Positions 10,081-64,000 of a stretch of 64,000 bases of DNA are shown here, piece after piece (position 1 is the stretch's first letter; the number at the start of each line of letters is the position of its first letter). Under the pieces are notes generated by a model. It saw only the letters and a program-made list of their open reading frames with translations, had not been told where the DNA came from and made no database searches. The stretch comes from Adineta vaga (lineage: Eukaryota > Animalia > Rotifera). The stretch lies in NCBI GenBank assembly GCA_021613535.1, contig CP075492.1:2046001-2110000 (forward strand). The letters are read 5' to 3'. A program made the position numbers and the translations under genes.

Positions 10081-11340
10081 ATGGCAGCTATTTCAATCAA
10101 ACCATATTCATTTACATTTGAAAGTTTTACTTCAAAAGTATATGCAATTCAAAATCAAGCAACTGAACTTGAAAAAATCCTACGTGATTGCAGTCTCGTT
10201 CATTCATATTAATTGATCCATATGACCATTCTATTAGTGAGAAATTTTTCGATCATGAATTGATTAGTAAAGTTATAAAACATTTCGAGAAGAATTATAT
10301 ACCCAAATATTTACAAAAATGGATTCAAATTGGTAAAATGCATGGAAATACATTTTCGTCGTTAACCGAAAGTGAATTAAATTCACCAGTTTCTTCTTAT
10401 GTAAATAACTGTATGGCTTGGAAGATACAGACATTCATCACCAAATGAACTTATAATATCTGTTCAACTAATGGATACAATCGAAACTATTAAATCAAAA
10501 ATTTGCCAACGACGGAGAAAAAAAATATGAAAATAAGATTTTGTACAGTTCAATCAACTGCGTATCCTAATAGAGAAAACTGGTACAATGGTGCAATTCC
10601 TCAGTTAACTGATACGGTTATGGCATGTCGATTATATCAAGATCATTCTATTATCATGACAAATATCATTTCAGAACAGGTAAACTAATATTTTGTTTTA
10701 TTACTTTTCTTGATTTATATTTTAGAATTGGAAATTTCATACTGAACTTGATATATCTGTAAAACACCTTACTGGAACCATAACTTATTTACATGTTCAT
10801 TTATCAGATAATATAGAAAATTTAAAGGCAAGAATACAAGATAAGGAAGGTATTCCTCCAGATCAGCAGCGCCTTATATACACAGGTTGTCAGTTGGAAG
10901 ATGGTGCAACAATGGGCGAATATGATATACCGAATGGAGGTACACTTCACCTAGTACTACGATTACGTGGTGGAATGTATGATTGGACTAGTGGACGATC
11001 AGATTTTGAGAACTTATTATATAATAGTGAAACTGTTATTGAAAATATTTTCGAATTTCATCTAAATGATATGAAACGAATACATCGTCAATCATCAAGA
11101 AATTTACAAGATTTTGTTGAACATGCACATACTGTTGTGGCGTATTTATATCGTGAACTTGAAAATGAGAACAAAATCTATCCATTTACCAACTTAAAGA
11201 ATGATATATTTTCACGAATTAATTATCAAAACGAAAAAAGCAGTGATAGTAGTGACGATCTTGAGGGTGGGTGTGGGCTTTCTGTTTACATCCCTCACAC
11301 CCACCCTACGACGAGTTTCCGCTGCTTCTCATCTCATTGA
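10081..11340 (+). pseudogene. Ubiquitin-domain fusion protein, frameshifted, C-terminus running into J6
   Basis: [19 protein letters not shown]...[11 protein letters not shown] at ~10750-10975; upstream part is split across frames; intron ~10680-10726. Confidence 0.75.
11258..11312. repeat. Junction element J6
   Basis: atcttgagggtgggtgtggg-loop-ccctcacacccaccctacg. Confidence 0.85.
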
Positions 11341-12916: not shown

Positions 12917-13288
12917 TTCTTGTCTTGCAAATGTGTCGGTCTGTTAGAGAAAGTGTTATTCTATGATATGAGGTTGTGGATGGAAAAAAGACTAGTCACT
13001 TTCTCACTGACAGATATTCATCTTTACTCTTATTTTATTTTCACGGATTATATTTGCGACTGAAAAGGGAATTTGTTTTATAATCTGATATCACTGGATT
13101 TATGTCACTGCAAATTACATAGTGACTTGCATTGACTCGTTGTCGCTTGAAGATTTCGTACATATTTTTTTCTTGAAAATTTTTAATCAAATTTATGTTA
13201 TATTGTCACGTCTTGAATTGCGTATCAGAAAAGGAAAAAGTCGTCAAATTCGATATCTAGTTTATTGACTCGAAAAAACAGAAACAAC

Positions 13289-13344
13289 CATCTTGAGGGT
13301 GTGGGTGTCTGCTCTTCAACAACCTCTACACCCACACCTTCGAA
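13289..13344. repeat. Junction element J7
   Basis: catcttgagggtgtgggtgt-ctgctcttcaacaacctct-acacccacaccttcgaa. Confidence 0.9.
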
Positions 13345-13701
13345 TCTAGTTCAGCAGTGTCTATATTTATCTTTCGAATACTCGTTACTCATTGTTTTGT
13401 ATTTCGTTATTCTTTTTATTCTCTATATATTACAAGGTAAACAAACATATTTTTAGACAAAGACGCTTATCGAAGCACATGCGAATATATCGTTTAAAAT
13501 AAACCATTTTGTATATTTGATGAATAGAGATATTGTGTAAATTCACCTTAACCAGCATTTTCTAAATGCAAAATAAAGAATAAAAAAAGGGCAAATGGTT
13601 TATATTTGTTCTTCTTTTTCACGATAAGTAATTTTCATTGTGAAGATTTATCTATACAGGCAAGATGTAACACACATTTATACTTTAAATAGAAACACAA
13701 T

Positions 13702-15317
13702 ATGTTTTGGTTGATGATACTTTTTATATTGGGAATTATTTGTTATATAATTTACAAGAAAAATAAACGAAAAACATCTGTAGATATTCCTCAATATGAT
13801 CATGCGATAGTTATTGGTGGTGATTTTGGTGGAATGATCACAGCTGTTTATTTAACAAAATATTTTTCAAAAATAACAATTATTGAATCTGATGATGTAT
13901 TAAATGATACATTTATGAAATCAACACCTGAACAAATATTAGATTATCGTTGCCGTCTTGAAAGTCCAACATCATTAGGACGAGCTGGTGTACCTCATAT
14001 GTATCTACCACACACATTGACAGTTGAAGGACATCCTATATTAGATGAATTATTTCCCGGTTTATTAAAAATCTTATTTAATGAATATAATATTCGTATG
14101 TATTCAGTAAAAAATGAAGGAAAAATTGCTATTAATAATATATTATTAAATCATAATCTAATAGATAACATTGAGTGGTTAGGTATTGATCGTTTTACAT
14201 TAGAAATTGTTTTAAGAAAATATGTATATTCAAAATATGAAAAGAAAATTCATTGGATATGTAATTCAAAAGTAATTCAACTTTTAACTGATCGATCATT
14301 AAATCTTGTTCAACGTATTAAATATCGTTTAAAACAAAATGATTTTGATATTTATGGTGATTTTATTATTGATTGTAGTGGACGATATTCATCTTCAATA
14401 AAATGGTTAAAAAATGATTTTAATTTAAATATTCCAACTGAACAAATTCATTTTGGTTATGGTGCTCTTTCATTTCTCGCTGAAAGATTAAAAACTAAAG
14501 ATCCATTATTAGATTCATTAAATATACTTGTTCATACAGCTAATGTTCCTGATAATAATATAGGTTGTTTTCTATTACCAATACCTACAATGAAAACTAC
14601 AGATGAAAATTCATTAGGAATAATAACAGCAATTGGTATTAATTCGAATAATTTTGAACATCAACCAAGTAATTCTTATGAAGCTCTATTAGAATGAATT
14701 CAAGATAAAATTCCAACGGAATATTTTACAATATTAAAATCATTGAAAGTAACTGGTCCATTGATTTCATATAGTCGTGAAATAGATTATCGAAAATATG
14801 TAGAAAATTAGAAAAGAAATGGCCAAAAAATTTTATACTATTAGGTGATGCAATGTGTACATTTGATCCTCATTTTGGTCAAGGTATAACTCATGCATTT
14901 AGACAGGCAAGAGAATTAAGAAATATATTTGAAGAAAATCAATATAAATTAAAAGATATTTCTCATATTTATAATTCTCGTGCATCAAAAATTAGTGATG
15001 AATGTTGGATTGCTTCTACTACAAGTAATTGGAAAACATCGACATTAAAAATAATCAAAACATTTCAACGAGATAAACGTTTTTCTAATTCGAAAGAATA
15101 TCAATTACAAACACCATTATTGATTAAATTTATACAATGGTATAGTTTTTGGTTTCTTCAATGTGCTTCGAAATCTGGAAGATTATCTACGGAATTTCTA
15201 TATGTTATTAATCAGTATAAGAATCCCATTCTGTTGTTTAAACCATTAACGATCTTAGCTGTTTGTTATACTGCATTAATGAACTATTTGGGTTTATCGA
15301 AAAAAATATTGACTTAA
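13702..15317 (+). pseudogene. Membrane-anchored FAD-dependent monooxygenase/oxidoreductase (bacterial/fungal-like), disrupted
   Basis: HAIVIGGDFGG (GxGxxG mutated), IIDCSGRYS, LLGDAMCTFDPHFGQG; in-frame stop at 14695-14697 and a later frameshift; no introns seen. Confidence 0.8.
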
Positions 15318-36858: not shown

Positions 36859-37711
36859 ATCAGAAACAAGACAAATCAATTACATACTAGAGCCCGAAAC
36901 GAGGCAATATTTCACTGCTTTGACTCGCCTCGTCTCTTGATAAATTTTAAAAAGCCTACTTCGTCTCGCTTTGGTTTTTAAAGATATTATCAAAATCGGC
37001 TGCGAATATATTGAGATCATTTATAATACAATGTATTTTTGCGATACTCACCATCTGAAATACACAACATGTCGAGTGTTCAGTATGTGAGGTTTCTCAA
37101 TATACGGATGAAAGTAATATCGAAATCGGTAGAAGTAATCTAGCCTACCGTAATGAATATAATGAAATAATATAAATATAATGGTGAATACAACCACGTT
37201 TATTTGGGGTTAAGTGAGAACAAAAACTAAATGAGAAAACACTATATATGGCTTGGTCTAAAAACTGTTTTAGGTTGATTTGTAAAAAAACCTCTCCTGC
37301 GACCAAAACAAATTCAAGTATTGTATTTCATTTTTACAGCACCTGTTACCCTGTATTGAGAAATACAATATATCACAAGGTGCAGCATGGAAAGCTCTAC
37401 AATTTACATAATACTGCTTATTTTATAATTGCACTTGTTGTTTTCAAAATGAACAAAATTTTGAGTGATCAAATTTCGACAACACGAGGTGGCAAATCTT
37501 TTTGGTCCAAGAGGAATTTGTTTTTTTCCGACTTCATCTTTTTATAACTGATCATCGTAAATTGTAGAGCTTTTCACGCTGCATCTTGTGATATATTTCA
37601 TTTTTTCGAAATAGTGTAATAGGTGGTGTAAAAATGAAATGCAGTATTTAACTTTATTTCGGCGTTGGGAGATTACGCACTCACACCCTAGTTGACAAAT
37701 GCTTTGTACTG

Positions 37712-37771
37712 CTCGAGGATGCAGGTGTGGGTGTCTGCTCTTCAACAACCTCTACACCCACACCCTCGAAT
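37712..37771. repeat. Junction element J14 (same loop as J7)
   Basis: ctcgaggatgcaggtgtgggtgt-ctgctcttcaacaacctct-acacccacaccctcgaa. Confidence 0.9.
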
Positions 37772-38354
37772 CTAGTTCAGCAGTGTCTATATTTATCTTT
37801 CGAATACTCGTTACTCATTGTTTTGTATTTCGTTATTCTTTTTATTCTCTATATATTACAAGGTAAACAAACATATTTTTAGACAAAGACGCTTATCGAA
37901 GCACATGCGAATATATCGTTTAAAATAAACCATTTTGTATATTTGATGAATAGAGATATTGTGTAAATTCACCTTAACCAGCATTTTCTAAATGCAAAAT
38001 AAAGAATAAAAAAAGGGCAAATGGTTTATATTTGTTCTTCTTTTTCACGATAAGTAATTTTCATTGTGAAGATTTATCTATACAGGCAAGATGTAACACA
38101 CATTTATACTTTAAATAGAAACACAATATGTTTTGGTTGATGATACTTTTTATATTGGGAATTATTTGTTATATAATTTACAAGAAAAATAAACGAAAAA
38201 CATCTGTAGATATTCCTCAATATGATCATGCGATAGTTATTGGTGGTGGTTTTGGTGGAATGATCACAGCTGTTTATTTAACAAAATATTTTTCAAAAGT
38301 AACAATTATTGAATCTGATGATGTATTAAATGATACATTTATAAAATCAACACC
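37724..38354 (+). repeat. Near-identical duplicate of 13298-13928 containing the 5' fragment of the FAD oxidoreductase (38128-38354)
   Basis: Constant offset of 24426 nt with only a few substitutions. Confidence 0.95.
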
Positions 38355-38417
38355 ATCTTGAGGGTGTGGGTGTTATTATTACATCTCTCTAACACCCGCA
38401 TCCACATCCTTAAGATG
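38354..38417. repeat. Junction element J15
   Basis: catcttgagggtgtgggtgtt-loop-aacacccgcatccacatccttaagatg. Confidence 0.95.
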
Positions 38418-38713
38418 ATCGAAAGATGAATGTTGCATCCACATCCCATAAATCATTTAATTAATCTTCATTTAGATAGGTAGAATACCGTCAAGCAGAG
38501 AAAAACATGACAAAGACTATTGTATGAGGAATCATCAAGCGGAACATATTTATTAAGAGGTTTTCAATAGTTTTGTTGCAATCTTTATCCATCTTACTAT
38601 GTAAAAAGCCTTGTACTTGTTTAAACATTGAATCTTTTGCGATGGAATATTCTCTACGAAAAGGTGGTTTCTCTGAATAGGAAAAAGATTATAAAAAGTC
38701 TCACTATCAGTTG

Positions 38714-41700
38714 CAGTGATTGGACGAGTACAAGTACGACAATTACTAGTACAAATAATTGTTACTTAAGTAATTGTACTATGGACTTGGACTCAGTACA
38801 TTGTACTGTAGTACGTTGTACTCAATACCCGTACTAAGTAGAATGTACTACAGTCAAAAGTAAGTACATTGTACTCAGTACAATGTACTTAGTACTTCGT
38901 TATAATTTCATGTTTTGTATTTATCATTATTTTCTAAGTTATTATTTCCCGTTGCCATGATATAATGACATCTAGAGGAATGAAAAAATAAAAGGAGATA
39001 TTTATATTACAATATCATGTATTAATTGACATAAAATCAATATAGTTTCAATGGAGGTATATAACTAATGAATAGTGTTATCTGAAGGACAGAAAAGAAA
39101 TAAAATAGCAAAGTAAAAGGAAGTGTATTGGTGCGTATGAACAACGGATGCACCAATGTCTTGTTTGTACATGGTCGTAAAACTGACTATATGTTATTAG
39201 TCACCGTGAAACAACATCTTACATCTGAATATAAATTCTATACAAGTCTTCGTCAATAAGCATGGCTGCTGAACAATTGAAGAAGTATTTTGATTTTTCA
39301 ATTATTGACAACAATAGAGTGAATGGTTATTGTAAACCGTGCAATCGCAATTACAAGGATAAAACTGGAATTGTCAGCAATTTCGTAAAGCATTTAAAAC
39401 GAAAACATTCATCTGAATATGAAACATTATTTGGTTGTCGCGTTGAAGATGCATCAGAAGATGGTAATGCTGGTGACAGTCAATCAAAATTAGAATTATC
39501 ATCAAGTAGTACTAAACAAGATTGTATTAATATGTCTATTGCAAAAAATCTAATTATCAAATGTAATTTACCATTGAGTTTAGTAGAGAATGCTGCTTTT
39601 CGTCTATTCATGAAAGAATGTACTGTCAAATGGGACCCCATATCGTCGAGAAAATTGAAACATGATGGAATTACATTTTTGGCGAATAGAATGAAAAAAA
39701 TTCTTTATGAAACACTAAATGGTGCAAAATTTGTTACTTTAACTGTTGATGCATGGTCTGACAGACGAAGCAGGTCATTTATTGGCGTGACCTGTCATTT
39801 TATTAATTACAAGTGTGAACCACAAACAGTTTTAATTGATTTTGTACGATTAAAAGGAACACATACTGATGAAAATATTCAACGAACTACCGAATTTATT
39901 CTCGATCGTTATAATCTCAAAGACAAGGTGTATAAGATAGTCACGGACAATGCTTCATCAATGATAAAAGCATACAAATTTGGCCTGTCTGTTGATGATG
40001 AAATTTATGATGATTACAACGATGAACCTAAACCAAATTCAAATAGTAATACTGCATTCGATGACAACGATCGTAAGCATTTTTTTCTACTTAAATGAAT
40101 AAAAAATAGAAATAATGTAAATCTTTTCAATGTAGATGATATAAATATTGATGACTTGAAGCTTATGAATGTTTCATTTGCTGACAATTATGATGATGTG
40201 GAAAATCCTTCGAATATTCGTTTATCATGTTTTATACATTCTTTACAATTATCTATACGTGATGGTTTGAAAAATTCTTCTTATGTACCAAAAGTACTTA
40301 AAAAGTGTCAAGCGCTTGCCAAATTTTCACACAGATCATCAAAAGCTGTCGAAACACTTGAAGAATTGAATAAAAACATCAACAAAATGACAATTACTCG
40401 GTGGAATAGTGAATTTTTATTAGTCAAATCCATTTTGTCAATTGGTAAAACAGATCTTGAATCGATTGCATCTTTAATGGAAGATCCAATTAAATTTTCT
40501 GATAATGATTTCATTGTTTTAGAAGAGCTTGTTGATATTCTTCAATCATTTAATGATATCTCAATTAAATGTCAAGCAGAAGCAGCAGTTACTATTAGTT
40601 TAGTCGTTCCATCTATTGTACATTTGATTTCACATCTTCGTGATGTTAGACAAGATATATCGTTATGTGTTAAACTGGTGCAGCAACTTGAACAATCAAT
40701 TAAAACACGTTTTGGTGGAATTATTAATCGATTGAATTTAGGTGATCTTGCTGATAACTCTGCCTATGGTGATCCAATATATTTCATAGGTGCTGTTTTG
40801 GATCCAGCATTTAAATTTTTATGGATCCATGATTTGAAATTACTTACTACAGCAGAAAATCGTTTAAAACAGCACATAATCGAATTGATTATTAATGAAA
40901 TGAAAAAGGATTTACCAGCAACAATTAGTGCACCAATGAATATCGATTCTTGTTTAACATCATCATTCGTATATTCTGCTTTTTCTTCTACCATCACATC
41001 ACCGAGAAAACGTCGGAAATTATTCAACTAAGATAATAATATTGATCTGAATTCGAATGCACCATCTTCACTCGATCCTGCTATAGAACTTGATGCTTTT
41101 TTGAACGATCCAGTTCGTCCAAATTTTTCTACTTATTGGTTTCATTCACAACTGAAGATTCTTAAAAGTTTAATCGTAAGAATTTTTTCAGTTCAGGCAA
41201 GTTCAGCGCCCATTGAGAGAGTTTTCTCTCATGCCGGATTGATATTAACATCAAGAAGAACGAACATGAATGAGACTTTATTTAATGATTTAGTTCTTCT
41301 CCGTGTGAATCAGAATTTACTTTGAAACAATTGCCTCACATTCTTTATTTGCATCAATTGTTCTTTTCACATGTGTTTCTGTTGTTTTACCATTTATTTG
41401 TCACTTGTTTCGCTCTTTATTTTTACTTACTATGCTTTTTATTAAATCACTGTTTGCTGCTGTCTTTTCATGAAACGAATAAAGTTTTTACTTATCATTC
41501 TAACATCATCTGATGTTCATTATCGAATGTTCAATGAAAGCTTATATACAGCTAATTACCAAGTGAAGCGCACTTAATACATATTTAACAAACGGGCTAC
41601 TCAACAACAAAATATTATTCCGTATTTGATTTGACGTTGCATAGATAAATAATTCATAAAATTTAAAATTCAGTAGTCCACATTAAAAGATTACCTGAAA

Positions 41701-42022
41701 AATACACTATTTAGCAAGCTGTTGAGTGAATGTCTATGGATGAGACCATATTAAAAGTATGTATCCCGCAGAAATCATAAATGAACAGCTAGAAAAAAGG
41801 ATTAAATTTAACAACATCTGATTAAGTACCTAGTACACATGTACTATAGTACCGGCACTAAGTACGTTGTACTGGAGTACAATGTACTGAAGTGCCAGTA
41901 CTAAGTACACAAGCTAAGTAAAAAGTATATGTACTTGTACTGCACATTTTTACTAAGTACTAGAGATTTTTAAGCAAAAAGTACGAAAAGTACCAAGTCC
42001 TGTACTAAGTATCCAATCACTG
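38714..42022 (+). mobile_element. hAT DNA transposon
   Basis: TIR CAGTGATTGGA...TCCAATCACTG, dense subterminal AGTAC/GTACT repeats, internal transposase. Confidence 0.9.
39262..41325 (+). pseudogene. hAT transposase (BED finger, DDE, dimerization domain) with one premature stop
   Basis: CKPC..HLKRKH, TVDAWSD, VTDNA, CFIHSLQL, TRWNS, SSAPIERVFS; intron 40073-40135; TAA at 41029-41031 is in frame with the C-terminal domain. Confidence 0.9.
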
Positions 42023-43070
42023 TCGGTGATGGACATGGAAACTTAACTAATCAAACAGCCTACAGTATTGGTGTTGATCCGATTGGGATAGCAGCAGGTG
42101 ATTTTGATGGCAACCATCACTTAGATATTGCTGCTACCAATGCTGGTAGCAACAATGTGGATGTGTTGCTTGGCTATGGAAACGGTTCATTTCAAACGTA
42201 CACCAAGTATGAAGCTGGTCCTCAACCTAAATTTCTAGCAGCGGGTGATTTTAACAATGATATGAAACAAGATTTAGTGATCTGCAATTCAAATGGTATC
42301 AGTATACTGCTCGGCACATCACGTGGAAAGTTTTATCAACACAGGAGTTATAAAATGGGATTCGGTCCAGAAGCAGTTGCCGTCGGTGATTTCAATAGAG
42401 ATAGCAACTTAGATTTAGCCATAGTCAATAGAAGATCAAATAACATCATTCTATTCTTTGGTAACGGAAATGGAACCTTTGGAAATCAAACTAAGTATGA
42501 TGTTGGTCGTAGTCCAATCTTCATCGTTGTAGATGATTTCAATCACGATCATTATCTAGATTTAGTGGTCGCCAATACTGATAATAGTAGTATTAGCATA
42601 CTTCTTGGTCACGGTGATGGAACATTCAAGCATGAGGAACAGTTTCCAGCGGGTGGTAATCCAAGTGGTTTAGCAGTGGCGGATTTCAATCATGATAAAA
42701 AGTTGGATTTGGCAGTATCACTCTGGAGCACTGACCCAAATAATGCTGTCGGTGTCCTTCTCGGTAATGGAGATGGTACATTTGCGAAACCAGTTAACTA
42801 CAGAGGTGATCTCTACTCCTCTTACATAACTACCGATGATTTCAACAATTACCGCCATCTCGATCTAGCCGTTGTGAACTTTGCCAGCAACGATATCAGT
42901 CTACTCTTAGGCAATGGTGATTGAACATTTCAGGAGCCGTTGTGTTATCGCATGGGATTCAATCCGACAGCAATGATTATCGGTTCATTTACCAAAAAGC
43001 ACAAAGCTGATTTAGCTGTCACGACACACGATAACAATGCTGTTGCTGTACTACTCAATTCGTGTTTGTA
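42023..43070 (+). pseudogene. FG-GAP/VCBS repeat beta-propeller protein, 5'-truncated, with a premature stop
   Basis: Repeated GDFNxDxxLDLAV...LLGNGDGTF; the reading frame starts at the hAT end; TGA at 42922 is followed by one more repeat ending LLNSCL*. Confidence 0.85.
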
Positions 43071-55220: not shown

Positions 55221-58200
55221 GTGACAAAACTCTTCAATTATATTCGTCATCTATATTCAAAAGTCAAGTCCTCTATTGAAAATTTCAATTTATTTGAATC
55301 TATTCCTCCATCTACTGATCAACATCAACTTCGAAATGAAAAAATTTCAACTAGAACATTTATCTTTCTCTTGATTACATCATTAACTATTCTTCTCTTA
55401 TACACTTCACTGATTGATATTACACAAACTGTCAATATTAAACAACCAACCATGTCAAAATATTTAGAATTATATTCTCAATATTCACAAACATTAACAT
55501 GTCCATGTACACAAATATCAATTAGTTATGAAACATTTCTTTCTATTGAATATAGATTTCATCAAGTATGTGATAGTTTTCTTGTCAATGAAGATTGGTA
55601 TAGTTTCATTTCTGAATCTAATACCGCCTATACTCTGTATTTAAATGATTATCGGTGGACAAGTTTATTTTTATTTCAAGCTATAAATGCGTTCTGTGGG
55701 TTAATTAAGCAAACGATTTCTAATCGTTTGAGGCAATTTTATTCAAATCAATATGTTAGTGCATCTGTCATATCATCACAAGTATTTACATTAGAAGTTC
55801 AAACATTGACAGCTCAGTTCATATCGTCTACAACTAACGAATTTTTATTATCATTAAATACAATACAAGAGACAACCCGGAGCAACTCTTTACTTTCGAG
55901 TCAACAAACTAATTATGCCTTGTATGTACCGAATAGAACTGTAAGTGGCTATATGTCTCTATCTTCAAAATCCTATGATGGTTGTAGCTGTTGGGTATCA
56001 TCTACATGTATGAGACAATCATCAGTCTTTGAACATTTTACTATAAGGGCATTATATAATATACCAGGTATTTATAGAGGATGTTATATCATTCAAACTT
56101 TACTTCAATCGGATCTTCGATGCTTTTTTAATCAAAGTTGTATCAATGAAGGACTGTCATTTTATAGTTTGACTCCATCAATATATGTAACCGCTCTTAA
56201 TAAATCATTACTGTATCGTTTTTTTCCAAATTCAACACTGAAAGAAATCGTTAACGAGCTGATGGTTGAACGATGGATGACATCAATAATGTATGAGAAT
56301 TATTATGATAAATGTCAACCAATAGAGTGTACTTATACTCATCGAACAAAGAATGACATTATTTATATTGTAACAACATTTATTGGTTTGACTGGCGGTT
56401 TAATAACAGTATTGAAACTTACTATACTATCAGTGGTTAAATTGATTAGAAGAAAACGACAAGTATCACGGACAGATGTTGGTAAGAAATAATATAAGTT
56501 TTTAAGGGTAACCGAAAACTACAACATTTTCTCGAGCTATATTTATAAAATATTTATATTGGGAAGAAATCTTTTTGGTAGTGTTTCTTTTGTCTCACTA
56601 TTTTTCGATAGTATTGCCATACTATATGCAACGGACAAATAAATACTGTTTTGAAATCCTGACATAAAATTAAATTGATGTTAGATCAACAAAATGTGAG
56701 TGCCAATGACAGTACAAGTCCCTTTTTGTACACACTCTCACTTCCACTCATACATTTGTCTTATTAGTGTTTCAGCTTATATATGTGACTAGCGGAGATA
56801 CCCGCTGCAAAAACGACACAATTTACGTTTTTTATCTACAGCAGTGCTTTTCTTATCACCCACAGGACCTCCTCGTTCGTATTTATCCGTCATGTATCAA
56901 AAAATCCTCACACCCTCCTTTTCCGCCCTGACTTAGTTAGTGTAATCTTTCAGGTCGTCACTCAGCGTACGCTACCTGTCTTCCACACGTCTTTCTCCTC
57001 CGTACTGAGATCCTTCCTATATCCCTTTTCGCGTCATACACCAGGTCTTTTTTCAGAACTTCGCATCTCTTCATTAGTTCTTTCCTACAGATTTTCTCTC
57101 GCTTTGCATACGAAATACAGCTCTGTTCCTTTTAAATCCACTCCTACTGTCCCGCTGCAACTCCAGTCCCATTCTACACCCACTGTCCCGCTGCAACTCC
57201 AGTCCCATTCTACACCCACTGTCCCGCTGCAAGTCATTCTCTACTTTATAAACTTCACTTCTACTCTATACAGGTAGAGTAGTCATTTCACTCCAGATTC
57301 AGTTTTTTTTAGAACCCAACCCATGCTTTGTAGTTGTCTATCCTGGATGCAGACACCTACACCCACCCTCATTCCTATATGCCATCTTGAGAGCGAAATT
57401 TCACACACGCCGCCTCTCCATCCCTTGATGGCTATTCTAACTTCATTTCGACCTTCCTCTGGATCGAGGGAAGCATTGTGGAAAGTTTGGTGACGTTAGC
57501 TGTTACAGGGAACGTACGCATAACGAACAAACAGACAAACTTTCTTCTTTATATATATAGAAGATTATATAGATAGATATATAGATAGATAGATAGATAT
57601 AGATTAAAGAACCTTTAATTGTCACATTTATTGCAAGAAATAAACAGTATCAAATAAAAAACCCTCAAAACTGGAGCACATTCTGTAAGTTTCTACCAAA
57701 ATAACGACAATTGAAATTCAATACGACTTGGGTGAAATTTCACCCAGACACAGATTCCCACCCTCAAATCAATATATTTCGATACGGAACGTGTAAATTA
57801 TCGTAGATGTGCGCTCTGACGGCCTTCGGCCGCCTTCGCTATCGATTATTTAAAGTTTTTGAAATGCTGCAATCCTATTGGTCAGTTTCATAGATTGCCC
57901 GCAGGAAGCGTAGAATTTATTTTTTTCGGAACAAAGTAAATGTCGACCTTCCCGTAAGCCTAGAGAAGCATTGTGGAAAGTTTGGGAATGTTAGCTATCA
58001 TTGAACTGCCTGGGTGAAATTTCACCCACGCTCCCCACCCCCACCCCCTGATGACCATTCTAACCCCATGTCGACCTTTCCTGGGACCTAAGGAAGCATC
58101 GTAGAAAGTTTGGTAGGTGTGGCTATTACAGCGACCGAATGCATAGCGAACAGACAGACAGACAGACAAACTTTCCTCTTTATATATATAGAAGATTAAT

Positions 58201-61094
58201 TCAATAATAAAAGTTTTTACACAATTGTTTTTACTATTTTATGAATGATTCAAGAAGAAGACGAAAGATATAATATCGGTCAAAGATTGAAACATTATTT
58301 GATCACATATAATGCGTTCCAATCAATTCCTCCATCTACCGATCAACATCAACTTCGAAATGAAAAAATTTCAACTAGAATATTTATCTTTCTCTTGATT
58401 ACATCATTAACTATTCTTCTCTTATACACTTCACTGATTGATATTACACAAACTGTCAATATTAAACAACCAACCATGTCAAAATATTTAGAATTATATT
58501 CTCAATATTCACAAACATTAACATGTCCATGTACACAAATATCAATTAGTTATGAAACATTTCTTTCTATTGAATATAGATTTCATCAAGTATGTGATAG
58601 TTTTCTTGTCAATGAAGATTGGATCAATTATACTGCTACATCTGTTGATTTTAATGTCATAAAAATTTATGACTTTCGTTACCTAAGTTCATTCATATTT
58701 CGAAGTTTGAATGTTCTTTGTAAGTTAATCAATCAAACGATTTCTAATCGTTTGAGGCAATTTTATTCAAATCAATATGTTAGTGTATCTGTCATATCAT
58801 CACAAGTATTTACATTAGAAGTTAAAACATTAGCAGATCAATTTATATCATCAACTAAAAACGATTTTTCGTTGTCGTTAACAACAATACGAAATACCAC
58901 TCAAAGCAATGCTTTATTTTCTGGCTTGCGAACCAATTATAATTATTACATAGCGGTTGATCGGGTTTATCCAGATCCTTATCCAGTATCTTATGGTGAA
59001 TGTAGCTGTTCATCTTCACCTAGATGTCGTTCACAATCTATTATTTATAATTATCCTGATGGCAGGGTTTTATTCATTGTACCTGGTATCTATAGAGGAT
59101 GTTATATAATTGAAGCTTTACTTGAGTCAGATCTTCGATGTTTTTATAATCAAACATGTATAAATGAACTACAATCATATTATTCATCAACTTCGTCAAG
59201 AAATAGAACAGTCCTTGATAAATCATTATTAGTTCAATTTTTTACAAACTCAACAATTAGTGAGCTTGTTAATGAATTAATGGTTGAACAATGGAAGAGC
59301 GCAGTAAAATACGAACAATATTACAATGCTTGTCAACCAATAGAATGTATTTATTCACATGAAGCGAGAAACAAGCCGATCTACATTGTAACGACACTTA
59401 TTGGATTACTTGGCGGTTTGATAACAGTATTGAAGTTAATTATACTAAGACTTGTATCGTTTTTACGAAAACAAAAACAGCAAACAAGAGTACATATTGG
59501 TAAGAAAATATCAAAAATGATTCTTTTGCATTCCACTCGAGTTGGCTTTCTATATGAAAGCAAATCTTTTTATAAAGTACTAATCACTTTTTGACCAGCA
59601 CAGAGTTTATGCTCAAATTTTATGTTGAAGATGACATGTAAATGATTAACGATTGTACAATATGCTGTCCTTCTGCTCACTGCTAACAAGTAAGCGATGC
59701 TTTAACAATCTATAGAAATAGAACCCTTCAGATAGAATAATAAAGGTTGTTCATGTTTAAAGACTCAATTGAAATATTTTCTAAAACTTTGGTTTATTTA
59801 TTTCTGTTTAGTGACGACCATGAATGAAAAGATTCAACCATTAAGCACAAATTTAAAATTATTTTTTCAAAATTTCAATTTATTTGAATCTATTCCTCCA
59901 TCTACCGATCAACATCAACTTCGAAATGAAAAAATTTCAACTAGAACATTTATCTTTCTCTTGATTACATCATTAACTATTCTTCTCTTATACACTTCAC
60001 TGATTGATATTACACAAACTGTCAATATTAAACAACCAACCATGTCAAAATATTTAGAATTATATTCTCAATATTCACAAACATTAACATGTCCATGTAC
60101 ACAAATATCAATTAGTTATGAAACATTTCTTTCTATTGAATATAGATTTCATCAAGTATGTGATAGTTTTCTTGTCAATGAAGATTGGATCAATTATCTT
60201 ACTACAACTTACGTACCTGGTAACATTTCTATCTACGATTTTCGATATACGAGTTCATTCATATTTCAAGCTATAAATGCGTTCTGTGGATTAGTTAATC
60301 GGATGATTTCTAATCGTTTGAGGCAATTTTATTCAAATCAATATGTTAGTGCATCTGTCATATCATCACAAGTATTTCATTTGCAAGTTGAATCATTAAC
60401 AACTCAATTCATATCGTCTACAACTAACGATTTTTTATTATCATTAAATACAATACGAAATACTACTCAAAGTAATTCGTTATCCACTGGTCCTCTAACT
60501 AACTACAAACTATATATAGAACAAGGTAGTGGTACTATCACTAATATTCCGCAAATGCTTGATGAATGTAGTTGTGCGTCTTCAGCCAGATGTAGTCATC
60601 AATCTCTCATATGTTCTTATGTATGTGATACCCCATATTTTTTGGTGCCAGGTTTTCGTACTGCATGTTATATTATTGAATCATTACTTCAATCTGATCT
60701 TCGATGTTTTTATAATCAAACATGTATAATTGAATTACAAACATATTTCACGTCGTCTACAATAATGAATATCACGTCCCTTGACAGGTCATCACCAAGT
60801 CGATTTTTTCCAAATTCAACATTTGAAGAAATTTTTAATGAATTAATGATTGAAAGATGGAATTCAACGTTAATGTATGAAAAGTATTATAGTGTATGTC
60901 AACCAATTCAATGTATTTATACCCATGAAGCGAAAAATAGTATTATTTATATTATTACTACTTTATTTGGACTTACTGGTGGTTTGACAAAAGTTTTTAG
61001 AGTATTCATACCGTATTTGGTTAAATATACTACAGTTTTGATTCGCAAATGGAAACTAAGAAATAGTACAGTTCAACCAATGACTGATACATAA
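55221..61094 (+). CDS. Membrane protein made of three tandem ~420-aa exons (TM - Cys-rich ectodomain - TM), unknown function
   Basis: ORFs 55221-56492, 58245-59594 and 59769-61094 are paralogous (LTCPCTQISI, CQPIECxY). The first two end at G|GTAAG donors; the third follows an AG acceptor and has the stop. Confidence 0.75.
56789..57564 (-). mobile_element. Non-autonomous Helitron in an intron
   Basis: Minus strand 5' A|TCTTCTATATATATAAAG ... 3' hairpin GCGGGTATCTCCGC ending in CTAG|T; internal 36-bp tandem repeat at 57146-57232. Confidence 0.75.
57603..58195 (-). mobile_element. Second related Helitron-like copy, 3' end unclear
   Basis: Same 5' end TCTTCTATATATATAAAGAGGAAAGTTTGTCTGTCTG; shared gtgaaatttcac and aagcattgtggaaagtttgg blocks. 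Confidence 0.6.
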
Positions 61095-61750: not shown

Positions 61751-64000
61751 ATGAATCGAGGTGTAAAGAGGATTGGTGGATTAATATCTGTGATATTTGC
61801 GTTGGGAATTATCATTTTTTTATTGATTTATTTCATCAGAAAAGAATATCTACTAGATAGACGATCAGGTATGTGTTATTACGTAATTAAATTATGAAGA
61901 TATAAAATAGATACAATAGTTTCAAAAAATGTACTACTTCGTATCAACTCATTTAGATGAAATACTTAAATCTAGATCATTTGAGATTTTATTTTTTACT
62001 GCAAAATGTTACAAATCCTTCTAATTTTAAATATTTATTTCATTAGAAGTGCGATCGATTTATCAATCCAAACTGACGGTATTTAGTCCAATGTATATTC
62101 ATTCCCAAGACCATTGGTCAACATCGATTTTTTATTATGAGTATATACAAATCGAGGTTAATACAACAGGAACTTACACTATTATGTCCAATAGTACCAT
62201 GGATATGCAAGCATTTTTATTTAATCATACTTTTAATTCTTCAATAGTAGATCAAGATTTTATTATATTCGACGATAGTAGCGGTGACAATTACCAATTC
62301 ATGTTTAAAACCGTGTTTCAAGCTACAATAAAATATATTTTATTTATAACAACTTCTGTAGGGAACACAGTAGGAAGTTTTTCAATTATTGGTTTGGGTC
62401 CAACATCGATCAATATTTTTTCAAGTGAATCAAACTAGGAATAAACTATTTCACATAAAATAGATAGTCTAGAATTGAGAAAATGAAAAATATGGGAGTG
62501 AGGATTTGGTTTGTGAAAAAAGCAATCCTTCCGTCCATATCTTCACTCTCATAAATTAGTAAAAATCGATCTTTTCTTCTAGTTACATCTCTGATCAATT
62601 CTCAACAAGTGCAATCATATTACTCATCAGCATTAACAACAAACAGTCCATTGTATGTTCATCCTGAATATTCTTCGCCAACTGTAGTTTTTTATTATCA
62701 TGCTATTCAATTAAGCGTGATAACAACAGGAGCTTATTCAATATTGTCAAATAGTGTTTTGGATACGCAAGGATATATATATAATGATACTTTTAATTCT
62801 ATATTTCCTACTCAAAATTTATTGTTAACCGATGACAATACTGGTGGCAATAAACAGTTCATGTTGACATTAGCTCTTTATTCTGGAAAAAATTATACCT
62901 TAGTCGTAACAACATTCTGGCCGGGTTTTAAAGGAACATTTTCATTAACCACACGTGGTCCAGCATCGATTACTTTTTTACGGAGTAAGTCAATCTAATA
63001 AAAATACCATTTATGAGACTAGGCGAATTTTTAAACATATTCACATTTCTATTCTGACTCTTAACACATCCATGATCCTCACATATCTTCAGCCATCCTT
63101 TGTTTAAATGATTTCTTAAATCTGATTTTTTTCTATTATGAACCTTAGTGAATACAACAAGTATACAATCCACTTACTCATTGGCTTTGACGACATCGAA
63201 TCAATTGTATGTCCGTCCTGAAGCATATGCGCCAACTGGTGCTTTTTATTATCAGACTATTCAATTGAAAGTGTCAATAACAGGAGTTTATACTATCGCA
63301 TCTTATGGTACCATGGAGATAAAAGGATATATATATAATCATACTTTCAACTCTACATTTCCAAATCAAAATTTACTTATATCAAATGTTAACACTGGGA
63401 AAGACAAACAGTTCTCGCTTTCAATAAATTTTTATTCAGGGTTAAATTATGTCTTCGTTACAACAACATATTGGCCAAATGCCACAGGAACATATACAAT
63501 AATTGCAAATGGTCCAGCATCAATTAATTTTGTATTGAGTGAGTACATAGGATAAGAATAGTAATCGTTATACGATATGTATTAGGGAACTTACAATAGT
63601 GTTTCTCAATTAATAGTATTCCGTGTAAATCAGGACAAATTTTATACGAAAAATAAATAGTATTTATACATCTTTCTAGATTTCTTCCTTTAAACTATTT
63701 TCAATTCTCATTTCAGCGTAAAAACTTTTTACACTGCTGAGTTATTTGTATTTTCTTCTGGTTACATCTTGAGGGTGTGGGTGGGTGGGTGTGGAAGAGG
63801 AGAAACCTACACCCACACCCACACCCTCAAGATGCTAATTAAATACTGAATATTGACGAATTCTGTTTTTTTCTATTAGTTAACTTAACCAAGATACAAT
63901 CAAATTATTTATCTGCTTTAACAATATCTAGTCCAATGTATAAACGTTCTGGAAGTAGTGAATCATCAGCCACCTTTTACTATCAAGCTATTCAAATTCG
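61751..64000 (+). CDS. Type II membrane protein with tandem ~120-aa beta-sandwich (PPC-like) exons; runs off the window
   Basis: Exon 1 MNRGVKRIGGLISVIFALGIIIFLLIYFI|gt; repeat exons at ~62049, 62583, 63148 and 63880 (YYxAIQL..TGxY..S..DTxGYIY..DD..G..QF..YxLVVTT). Confidence 0.7.
62491..62553. repeat. Degenerate intronic junction element J20
   Basis: tatgggagtgaggatttgg...ccatatcttcactctcata (16/19 inverted match). Confidence 0.5.
63765..63834. repeat. Junction element J21 (most intact copy, intronic)
   Basis: CATCTTGAGGGTGTGGGTGGGTGGGTGTGG-aagaggagaaa-CCTACACCCACACCCACACCCTCAAGATG. Confidence 0.95.

What the first reader, a model, noticed from the sequence alone, without database searches (positions are those of the whole stretch)
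37724..38417. Duplicated segment begins inside one palindrome and ends exactly at the first base of the next
Seen: 37724-38354 copies 13298-13928. Identity starts within the G-arm (ggtgtgggtgt) of J7/J14, includes the same loop and C-arm, the upstream region and about 76 codons of the FAD enzyme. It stops at ...tcaacacC|ATCTTGAGGG, and the sequence after J15 does not resume the gene. J15 is therefore a rearrangement junction created inside a CDS, not an insertion, and the loop travels with the downstream cassette. This is the most direct evidence of mechanism in the window.
Basis: seen in the sequence. Interest (0 to 1): 0.88.

Follow-up and report, generated by a model that had tools for sequence, protein, structure and literature searches.

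The report
Gene fragment stitched in by telomere-repeat scars
In this Adineta vaga (bdelloid rotifer) region a 631-base copy of a gene's promoter and first 76 codons sits between two small telomere-repeat palindromes, and its cut end was likely capped with telomere-type sequence and then joined to unrelated DNA, a clear single example of a break-repair scar class that this scan has met before in rotifers.

Summary
37724-38354 copies 13298-13928 (631 bases, 4 mismatches). It starts in the G-rich arm of palindrome J7/J14 and stops inside codon 76 of an FAD-enzyme gene, one base before the ATCTTGAGGG that opens palindrome J15. The gene does not resume to the right. Assembled contigs from four separate studies carry both junctions, so this is not a misassembly.

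The window is Adineta vaga. The palindrome arms are its telomere repeat TGTGGG, nearly always G-rich arm first (13 G-then-C pairs against 1 C-then-G).

The opening ATCTTGAGGG next to arbitrary DNA recurs in 75 AT-rich, rotifer-like metagenome loci. Long-armed copies share a 9-base centre.

Best reading, inferred: a copied piece of the gene region ended in a break. That end was capped from an RNA template with a fixed start plus telomere repeats, then fused head to head with another capped end. On the left, the join ran through the telomere-like arm of J7.

The closest known kind is vertebrate interstitial telomeric repeats inserted at break repair, including TERC-ITS. Earlier notes of this scan already describe the scar class in other rotifers. 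This locus adds a dated, read-supported case that joins non-contiguous DNA.

The parts
13290..13349 (.). Palindrome J7 (source copy): start ATCTTGAGGG 13290-13299, G-arm to 13308, 19-base loop 13309-13327, C-arm 13328-13338, then TTCGAATCTAG
   Evidence: folds as DNA hairpin at -12.6 kcal/mol, z -4.7
13298..13928 (+). Copy A of the duplicated 631-base segment
13702..15317 (+). Full-length FAD-dependent oxidoreductase gene of the tryptophan-halogenase-like family. First ORF 13702-14697, later ORF 14853-15317; the exon joins were not mapped here. It carries GGDFGG where relatives have S or G at the third position
   Evidence: 100% identity over 98% of the query to A. vaga protein I4U23_011269 (503 aa); relatives carry PF04820. 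Alignment
37661..37692 (.). Weak, decayed telomere-like pair ending in C-arm CACTCACACCC (37678-37688); the only C-then-G neighbour of J14
37698..37723 (+). 26-base piece ATGCTTTGTA...GGATGCAG that abuts J14's G-arm. A like piece at 57323-57350 abuts a C-arm
   Evidence: compared by eye; the MAFFT alignment was off register
37724..37775 (.). Palindrome J14: G-arm without the ATCTTGAGGG start, then the same loop as J7 and C-arm ACACCCACACCCTC
   Evidence: hairpin -11.4 kcal/mol, z -3.5
37724..38354 (+). Copy B of the duplicated segment
   Evidence: contigs of 4 runs
38128..38361 (+). Truncated reading frame: 77 codons plus a TGA that lies inside the element's ATCTTGA. It keeps GGGFGG
   Evidence: weak Rossmann-type Pfam hits; NAD_binding_8 23.1 bits against cut-off 21.9
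38355..38417 (.). Palindrome J15: start ATCTTGAGGG 38355-38364, G-arm to 38373, 18-base loop 38374-38391, decayed C-arm 38392-38409, end TTAAGAT(G)
   Evidence: hairpin -10.5 kcal/mol, z -4.4; 8-11 other contigs per run share 36-44 bases of its arm and loop with other left flanks
38418..38713 (.). Unassigned fragment right of J15 with no long open frame. 38498-38647 also occurs elsewhere in the genome with other flanks
38714..42022 (+). hAT-type DNA transposon: 11-base inverted ends CAGTGATTGGA / TCCAATCACTG, BED zinc finger ORF 39262-40098, second ORF 40156-41031. The 8 bases on either side do not match (ATCAGTTG against TCGGTGAT)
42023..42924 (+). FG-GAP repeat coding sequence that starts directly at the transposon's right end, so its 5' part is missing

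Best explanation
J15 is likely the scar of a break inside a copied FAD-enzyme gene fragment, whose cut end was capped with a fixed start (ATCTTGAGGG) plus telomere repeats and then fused head to head with another capped DNA end. Shown: the 631-base copy, its two boundaries, the non-contiguous right flank, and the presence of both junctions in independent data sets. Also shown: the arms are the rotifer telomere repeat, arranged G-arm first, and the same start sequence abuts unrelated DNA at many rotifer-like loci. Inferred steps follow. (1) A DNA end at ...GGATGCAG (37723) carried or received telomere repeats. (2) Its G-rich tail paired with the G-arm region of J7 24 kb away and primed copying of J7's loop, C-arm, the promoter and 76 codons. 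Alternatively, a fragment broken at the J7 palindrome was captured there. (3) Copying or the fragment ended at ...TCAACACC. (4) A reverse transcriptase, most simply telomerase reading its RNA from just 3' of the template, added (C)ATCTTGAGGG and TGTGGG repeats. (5) The end of the right-hand DNA was capped in the same way, which now reads ...CCTTAAGAT on the top strand. (6) The two caps were joined, leaving the loop at the joint. About 0.6% divergence has built up since.
For: Contigs of 4 of 4 runs from four studies carry both junctions, and the shared segment has about twice the word depth of its flanks. The organism is A. vaga. TGTGGG is the bdelloid telomere repeat (PMC7943196, PMC8494291; passages). 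Arm order is G then C in 13 adjacent pairs against 1 C then G, as expected if each segment's two 3' ends were extended. J15 has the canonical start on both outer sides. Exact ATCTTGAGGG occurs 7 times in 64 kb, always at an outer arm edge; I estimate about 0.1 expected by chance. After removing duplicates, 75 of these are AT-rich. They have unrelated left flanks but a half-conserved AACT just before the start, as expected for copying that begins at slightly different points of one template. 8 of 42 G-then-C centres in those loci carry CTTCTCTTT or its complement within 1 mismatch, exactly between long arms. The background is 8 of 64 per 200 bases. J15's arm plus loop recurs at 90-95% identity in 8-11 other contigs per run with different flanks, so the centre is copied and is not random filler. 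A second ORF is cut off at a canonical start: the LINE endonuclease ORF in L112. New telomere repeats at breakpoints are reported in A. vaga (PMC13564844, passages). Vertebrate TERC-ITS show telomerase-RNA pieces beside inserted repeats, including head-to-head cases in 3 of 41 loci (PMC8537989, passages).
Against: No bdelloid telomerase RNA was available, so the origin of the start and the centre is untested. J7 and J15 have different loops, which one template does not simply explain. In the window, the loops match the 9-base centre only at 2 mismatches (6 of 13), which is weak. The plain enrichment test for the 9-base core was negative: 9 of 57 downstream against 8 of 64 upstream at up to 1 mismatch. 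J14's left edge lacks the canonical start. No empty allele or sister haplotype could be examined, because no genome is held. The order of events and the copying step are therefore inference. An Athena/Terminon reverse transcriptase is not excluded, since its RNA also ends in ACACCC or TCACCC repeats (PMC6431247, passages). Of 6 metagenome ORFs that run into a canonical start, only 1 gave a Pfam domain.
Confidence: 0.55

Rival explanations
1. The palindromes are a small foldback or MITE-like mobile element. Under this reading, one copy jumped into a complete second copy of the FAD gene, and a later deletion removed the rest of the gene.
For: The element has defined inverted ends (ATCTTGAGGG / CCCTCAAGAT). 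It occurs in many copies across rotifer-like contigs. Other genomic copies share J15's loop. Strong hairpin folds are predicted.
Against: No direct repeat of 3 or more bases flanks the four complete elements I inspected by eye: 63765-63834, J15, L100 and L034. Arm lengths range from 8 to over 80 bases and loops from 9 to 45. G-tracts with the same start run to contig ends like true telomeres in 4 of 75 loci. This reading needs two events at one spot and still does not explain the left boundary inside J7's arm. No transposase is associated: 30 neighbouring ORFs are ordinary host genes.
Confidence: 0.15
2. J15 already existed at the target. Palindromes are fragile, so a break at its outer edge simply captured a stray FAD fragment by end joining, and the left join is ordinary ectopic recombination between two telomere-like arms. 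No new capping took place.
For: Three telomere-like elements lie within 760 bases (37661-38417), and a transposon without matching flanks follows. This suggests a repeatedly broken site. The left breakpoint lies in 11 bases shared by all arms.
Against: The fragment end coincides to within one base with the canonical start. J14's left edge has no such start, so a single pre-existing element cannot supply both J14's G-arm and J15's start. The same start abuts another cut ORF elsewhere (L112).
Confidence: 0.2
3. Assembly artefact: the 631-base copy B was placed wrongly by the assembler.
For: The two copies are 99.4% identical, the kind of repeat that confuses assemblers.
Against: Junction-specific contigs are present in 4 of 4 runs from four studies. 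They include copy B's private base at 38343 joined to J15 and the right flank. Shared-segment depth is about twice that of the flanks.
Confidence: 0.02

Closest known systems
Short interstitial telomeric sequences and TERC-ITS of vertebrates (Nergadze et al. 2007, PMC2246262, seen in the search listing only; Sola et al. 2021, PMC8537989, passages read)
   Same: In both, the species' own telomere repeat is inserted at internal sites during double-strand-break repair. Non-telomeric pieces lie beside the repeats; in vertebrates these are copied from the telomerase RNA just 3' or 5' of the template. Head-to-head pairs are explained by extension of both break ends.
   Different: In vertebrates head-to-head loci are rare (3 of 41) and the flanking piece has been matched to a known RNA. 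Here head-to-head is the rule, at about one per gene spacer. The start and centre are conserved, but their RNA source is unknown. This case joins DNA from two different places.
New telomere formation at breakpoints, and Athena/Terminon attachment, in Adineta vaga (PMC13564844 and PMC6431247, passages read)
   Same: The organism and the repeat are the same. Telomere repeats are added to truncated ends. Terminon RNAs end in ACACCC or TCACCC repeats, and TCACCC is the complement of the TGAGGG seen at the element start.
   Different: Those reports describe terminal caps and arrays in one orientation. They do not describe small internal G-then-C palindromes with a fixed start. No hammerhead ribozyme match (window scan at E up to 1) and no reverse-transcriptase domain (Pfam on 19 ORFs) lie in this window.
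Fusion-type interstitial telomeric sites (telomere-telomere fusion)
   Same: Head-to-head orientation, G-strand then C-strand.
   Different: Fusion sites are single relics of chromosome fusion with long arrays. Here the arms are 8-25 bases, there are at least 13 pairs in 64 kb, and they carry a conserved outer start.
Integron gene cassettes with attC hairpins
   Same: Imperfect palindromes lie between genes, with conserved outer cores and variable centres.
   Different: No integrase or other recombinase gene was found in the window. The organism is an animal. The arms are telomere repeats. Only one copied segment supports any 'cassette' behaviour.

Membership tests
Interstitial telomeric repeats inserted at break repair | Short internal array of the species' own telomere hexamer | tested here: met
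   GGTGTGGGTGT with up to 1 mismatch: 37 hits against 0.14 expected. TGTGGG is the bdelloid repeat (PMC7943196, PMC8494291).
Interstitial telomeric repeats inserted at break repair | An orthologous or allelic empty site shows insertion at a break | not testable with these tools
   No genome is held. Contigs of the four runs show only this arrangement across 38336-38500.
Interstitial telomeric repeats inserted at break repair | Junction joins ends with loss or rearrangement of flanks, without target duplication | tested here: met
   J15's left flank is FAD codon 76 and its right flank is unrelated. No flanking direct repeat was seen by eye at J15, 63765-63834, L100 or L034.
TERC-ITS | The flanking piece matches the telomerase RNA next to its template | not testable with these tools
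   No bdelloid telomerase RNA sequence was available. The conserved start and centre are candidates only.
Fusion ITS (telomere-telomere fusion) | Head-to-head orientation | tested here: met
   13 G-then-C pairs against 1 C-then-G among adjacent blocks within 60 bases.
Fusion ITS (telomere-telomere fusion) | Single relic of two full chromosome ends with long arrays | tested here: not met
   Arms are 8-25 bases and there are at least 13 pairs in 64 kb between ordinary genes.
MITE / foldback transposon | Terminal inverted repeats | tested here: met
   ATCTTGAGGG ... CCCTCAAGAT at 63765-63834, J15, L100, L034 and L114.
MITE / foldback transposon | Target-site duplication of fixed length | tested here: not met
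   None at the four complete elements inspected by eye. This is a small sample, not a census.
Integron-like cassette system | Site-specific recombinase gene with an attachment site next to the array | tested here: not met
   Pfam on 19 window ORFs found GPCR, EGF, NACHT, Hint, FG-GAP, SET, NmrA and BED finger domains, and no integrase.
Terminon / Athena 3' end | Hammerhead ribozyme motif directly before the C-rich repeats, and a reverse-transcriptase ORF | tested here: not met
   No hammerhead match in the window at E up to 1. No reverse-transcriptase domain among the window ORFs. In the 20-loci Rfam scan I saw the 150 best rows, which had no hammerhead; 126 lower rows were not shown.

The most novel reading that the evidence does not exclude
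Bdelloid rotifers routinely mend and reshuffle their DNA with an RNA-templated capping step that writes a fixed signature on each broken end: a start (C/AACT)ATCTTGAGGG, then telomere repeats, then a short centre. The capped ends are then fused. This stitches together pieces from different places, gene fragments with promoters included. The start and centre would be copied from the telomerase RNA outside its normal template. If so, these scars spell out part of an undescribed rotifer telomerase RNA and give a base-exact record of past breaks.
Probability: 0.3. Interest if true: 0.8.

Novelty: new variant of a known kind. Interest (0 to 1): 0.6.

Why it matters
Bdelloid rotifers survive massive DNA breakage, and their chromosome ends are mosaics of foreign and duplicated genes. 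How the pieces get joined is not settled.

This locus is a rare case where the source (13298-13928) and the product (37724-38354) of one such event both survive, only 0.6% diverged. The cut falls inside a reading frame, so it cannot be an ordinary insertion.

It shows that the telomere-repeat palindromes mark joins between non-contiguous DNA. It also shows that the join begins with a fixed, cross-species start sequence.

That gives a concrete, searchable signature for counting past breaks. It also gives a testable prediction for the sequence of the rotifer telomerase RNA, or of another templating RNA.

Tried and rejected
- **Whole-genome search:** the window's own genome is not held.
- **Rfam:** the window gave only one sub-threshold microRNA-like hit on the 63765 hairpin. 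Twenty metagenome loci gave only sub-threshold microRNA-like hairpin hits plus one tRNA. No known RNA family explains the elements.
- **Key papers:** the Terminon and Athena primary papers (PMC5850863, PMC1890498) are not held. What I say of them comes from a review (PMC6431247) and from recall.
- **Literature search for the motif:** four strings searched inside words gave only unrelated primer hits. No held paper prints the start sequence.
- **Helitron 3' end:** I considered a hairpin plus CTRR. CTAG follows J7/J14 and CTAA follows the 63765 element, but the other elements lack it, so I rejected this.
- **Penelope pLTR:** these repeats are about 200 bases and come with target duplications (PMC3846280, sections 6 and 9 read), so they are not the same thing.
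- **Alternative left flank of J15:** a loose end suggested one. One search showed that those contigs fit only 36-44 bases, so they are other elements and not an allele.
- **RNA evidence:** no RNA holder was listed among the sequencing runs. Expression of the truncated frame is unknown.
- **Enrichment of the 9-base centre:** a plain test over 200 bases downstream was negative. Only the position-specific count in long-armed copies stands.
- **Earlier notes on this genome:** none.

Full report
**What is there**

[quoted passage not shown] The ORF 13702-14697 is 100% identical, over 98% of its length, to NCBI protein I4U23_011269 (503 aa) on a 20.35-Mb contig. The other ORFs are typical animal genes: rhodopsin-type receptors, EGF and LDL-receptor repeats, NACHT, Hint, SET, FG-GAP and a BED-finger hAT transposase. 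No whole genome is held for it.

**The observation**

Aligning 13230-14000 with 37656-38426 gives an unbroken match from 13298/37724 to 13928/38354. That is 631 bases with four mismatches:
- 13339/37765, T/C
- 13823/38249, A/G
- 13873/38299, A/G
- 13917/38343, G/A

The flanks on both sides are unrelated. The match starts with 11 bases of the G-rich arm of palindrome J7/J14. It then includes the identical 19-base loop, the C-rich arm, the upstream region, and the reading frame from its ATG to the second base of codon 76.

In copy A the frame continues. In copy B the next bases are ATCTTGAGGGTGTGGGTGT, the opening of palindrome J15 (38355-38417). The frame closes at a TGA inside that opening, giving 77 codons (38128-38361). 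No frame to the right of J15 resumes the enzyme.

Two small qualifications apply. The C at 38354 may belong to the element, because 6 of 7 exact ATCTTGAGGG in the window are preceded by C. On the left, the breakpoint can lie anywhere in the 11 generic arm bases.

**Is it real DNA?**

I laid the assembled contigs of four runs from four studies of the same organism on 37300-38900 and on 38336-38500.
- In 4 of 4 runs one 218-base contig covers 38325-38542. It carries copy B's private A at 38343, the junction, the whole of J15 and 125 bases beyond.
- In 4 of 4 runs one 196-base contig covers 37558-37753 across the left junction.
- Each has 30 letters on the repeat side, one short of the tool's 31-letter rule. 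That is the expected result at a repeat edge with 31-letter words.
- Loose ends at 37724 and 38354 show copy A's flanks. The shared segment has about twice the word depth of the flanks; the tool warns that depth is not a copy number.

A misassembly is therefore very unlikely. These are contigs, not long reads, and some runs may come from the same laboratory clone.

**What the palindromes are**

Their arms are TGTGGG, the bdelloid telomere repeat (PMC7943196 and PMC8494291, passages), with the variant TGAGGG.
- GGTGTGGGTGT with up to one mismatch occurs 37 times, against 0.14 expected.
- Among adjacent telomere-like blocks within 60 bases, 13 pairs are G then C and 1 is C then G. That one lies between two neighbouring elements. 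There are also 2 G-G pairs and 7 C-C pairs.
- The pairs sit in nearly every gene spacer.
- The outer edge is conserved. Exact ATCTTGAGGG occurs 7 times, always at an outer arm edge, and near variants occur at other edges.
- As single strands the elements fold far better than shuffles, with z from -3.5 to -8.8.

**Beyond this genome**

Of the 122 matches, 45 lie in contigs of 42% GC or more, and I set those aside. Some of them are plainly bacterial chance hits, but the cut-off may also have dropped a few short rotifer contigs dominated by repeats. The other 77 (75 after removing duplicates) are AT-rich, and ordinary animal genes lie beside them.

Among those 75:
- The left flanks are unrelated, but the four bases before the start lean to AACT (A .44, A .55, C .47, T .51).
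- 35 have a C-arm downstream, 31 show a G-tract only, 4 run as G-tract to the contig end, and 5 are too short to judge.

Among 42 G-then-C centres, 8 carry CTTCTCTTT or its complement within one mismatch, placed exactly between long arms. The background rate for such a match is 8 of 64 per 200 bases. A plain downstream-against-upstream test was not significant (9 of 57 against 8 of 64), so only the position-specific result counts.

Within A. vaga, 8-11 other contigs per run share 36-44 bases of J15's arm and loop at 90-95% identity, with different left flanks. The centre is therefore copied sequence and not random filler.

Of six metagenome ORFs that run into a canonical start, one is demonstrably a cut-off domain protein. 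It is a LINE endonuclease ORF in L112 that ends 27 codons after the domain.

**Mechanism (inferred)**

If both 3' ends of a break are extended with G-strand repeats and the ends are then joined, the top strand reads G-arm, joint, C-arm, with the first-added bases on the outside. That is the anatomy seen here.

The fixed start next to arbitrary DNA, with a ragged AACT or C before it, fits copying that begins at slightly different points of one RNA, just 3' of a telomere-repeat template. The shared centre fits read-through at the other template edge.

Vertebrate TERC-ITS show both kinds of telomerase-RNA-derived flank, and rarely (3 of 41 loci) head-to-head repeats that the authors ascribe to a second enzyme acting at the other break end (PMC8537989, passages). 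New telomere repeats at deletion breakpoints are reported for A. vaga itself (PMC13564844, passages).

For this locus I propose the following sequence:
1. An end at ...GGATGCAG bore telomere repeats. It paired with J7's arm and primed copying through the loop, C-arm, promoter and 76 codons. Alternatively, a fragment broken at the J7 palindrome was captured.
2. The copy ended at ...TCAACACC and was capped.
3. The cap was fused with the likewise capped right-hand DNA, forming J15.

The four differences are split evenly. The C-arm T and the Asp in copy A look derived, and the Val and Ile in copy B look derived.

**What speaks against this reading**

- No rotifer telomerase RNA could be compared.
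- J7 and J15 have different loops.
- Window loops match the 9-base centre only at two mismatches (6 of 13).
- J14 lacks the start on its left.
- No empty site could be examined.
- An Athena or Terminon enzyme remains possible, because its RNA ends in ACACCC or TCACCC repeats (PMC6431247). However, the window has no hammerhead match and no reverse-transcriptase domain.

**Rivals**

- **Foldback transposon plus later deletion.** It is weakened by the lack of target duplications at the four complete elements I inspected, by the very variable arms and loops, and by the need for two events at one spot.
- **Capture of the fragment at a pre-existing fragile palindrome.** It is weakened because one pre-existing element cannot supply both J14's start-less arm and J15's canonical start.
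- **Misassembly.** It is all but excluded.

**Relation to earlier work of this scan**

Notes on other rotifer windows (Rotaria, Adineta steineri, another Adineta) already read this element class as head-to-head telomere-repeat scars. One note suggested copying from an RNA template, with TERC-ITS as the closest known kind. These are unchecked AI notes and are not independent support. They pointed me to the TERC-ITS paper.

What this locus adds is a source-and-product pair showing that such a scar closes a cut inside a reading frame and joins DNA from two places. It also adds the cross-locus counts for the start and the centre.

**Verdict**

This is a new variant of a known kind, telomere repeats inserted at break repair. 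It is informative for the mechanism, but the class is not new to this scan. Interest 0.6.

Noticed in passing
13820-13825 against 38246-38251: The full-length gene reads GGDFGG in its dinucleotide-binding motif. The truncated copy keeps GGGFGG, and eight relatives have S or G at that place. The 331-aa ORF of the full-length copy gave no Pfam family, while the 77-aa fragment gives weak Rossmann-type hits. The intact-looking gene may be the impaired one.
   Followed up: partly
38714-42022: A hAT transposon with 11-base inverted ends but unlike 8-base flanks (ATCAGTTG against TCGGTGAT). Its right end abuts FG-GAP coding sequence whose 5' part is missing, so a further rearrangement happened here.
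   Followed up: partly
37698-37723 and 57323-57350: A shared piece ATGCTTTGTA...GGATGCAG ends at a G-arm in one place and at a C-arm in the other. The same end may have been used twice, or it may be part of an unrecognised element.
   Followed up: no
10810-11340: A ubiquitin-domain frame runs straight into a canonical ATCTTGAGGG at 11258, and its last 27 codons are encoded by the palindrome. The gene may be truncated, or it may be using the scar as its end.
   Followed up: partly
L054 and L013 (metagenome loci): In these loci the DNA just outside the two arms is itself inverted-complementary for about 12-14 bases. This is what fusion of two sister copies of one capped end would give.
   Followed up: no
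56850-58050: A cluster of C-strand-only telomere-like blocks, with a tandem repeat of about 36 bases at 57140-57230. The orientation pattern differs from the G-then-C pairs elsewhere in the window.
   Followed up: no
38498-38647: This 150-base stretch right of J15 occurs elsewhere in the genome with other flanks on both sides and higher word depth. It is an unclassified repeat.
   Followed up: no
55221-61094 and 62049-63555: Three tandem paralogues of a 420-450-aa membrane protein; the one scanned (55221-56492) has no Pfam family. There are also three tandem 129-135-aa ORFs, of which 62609-62998 was scanned and has none.
   Followed up: no
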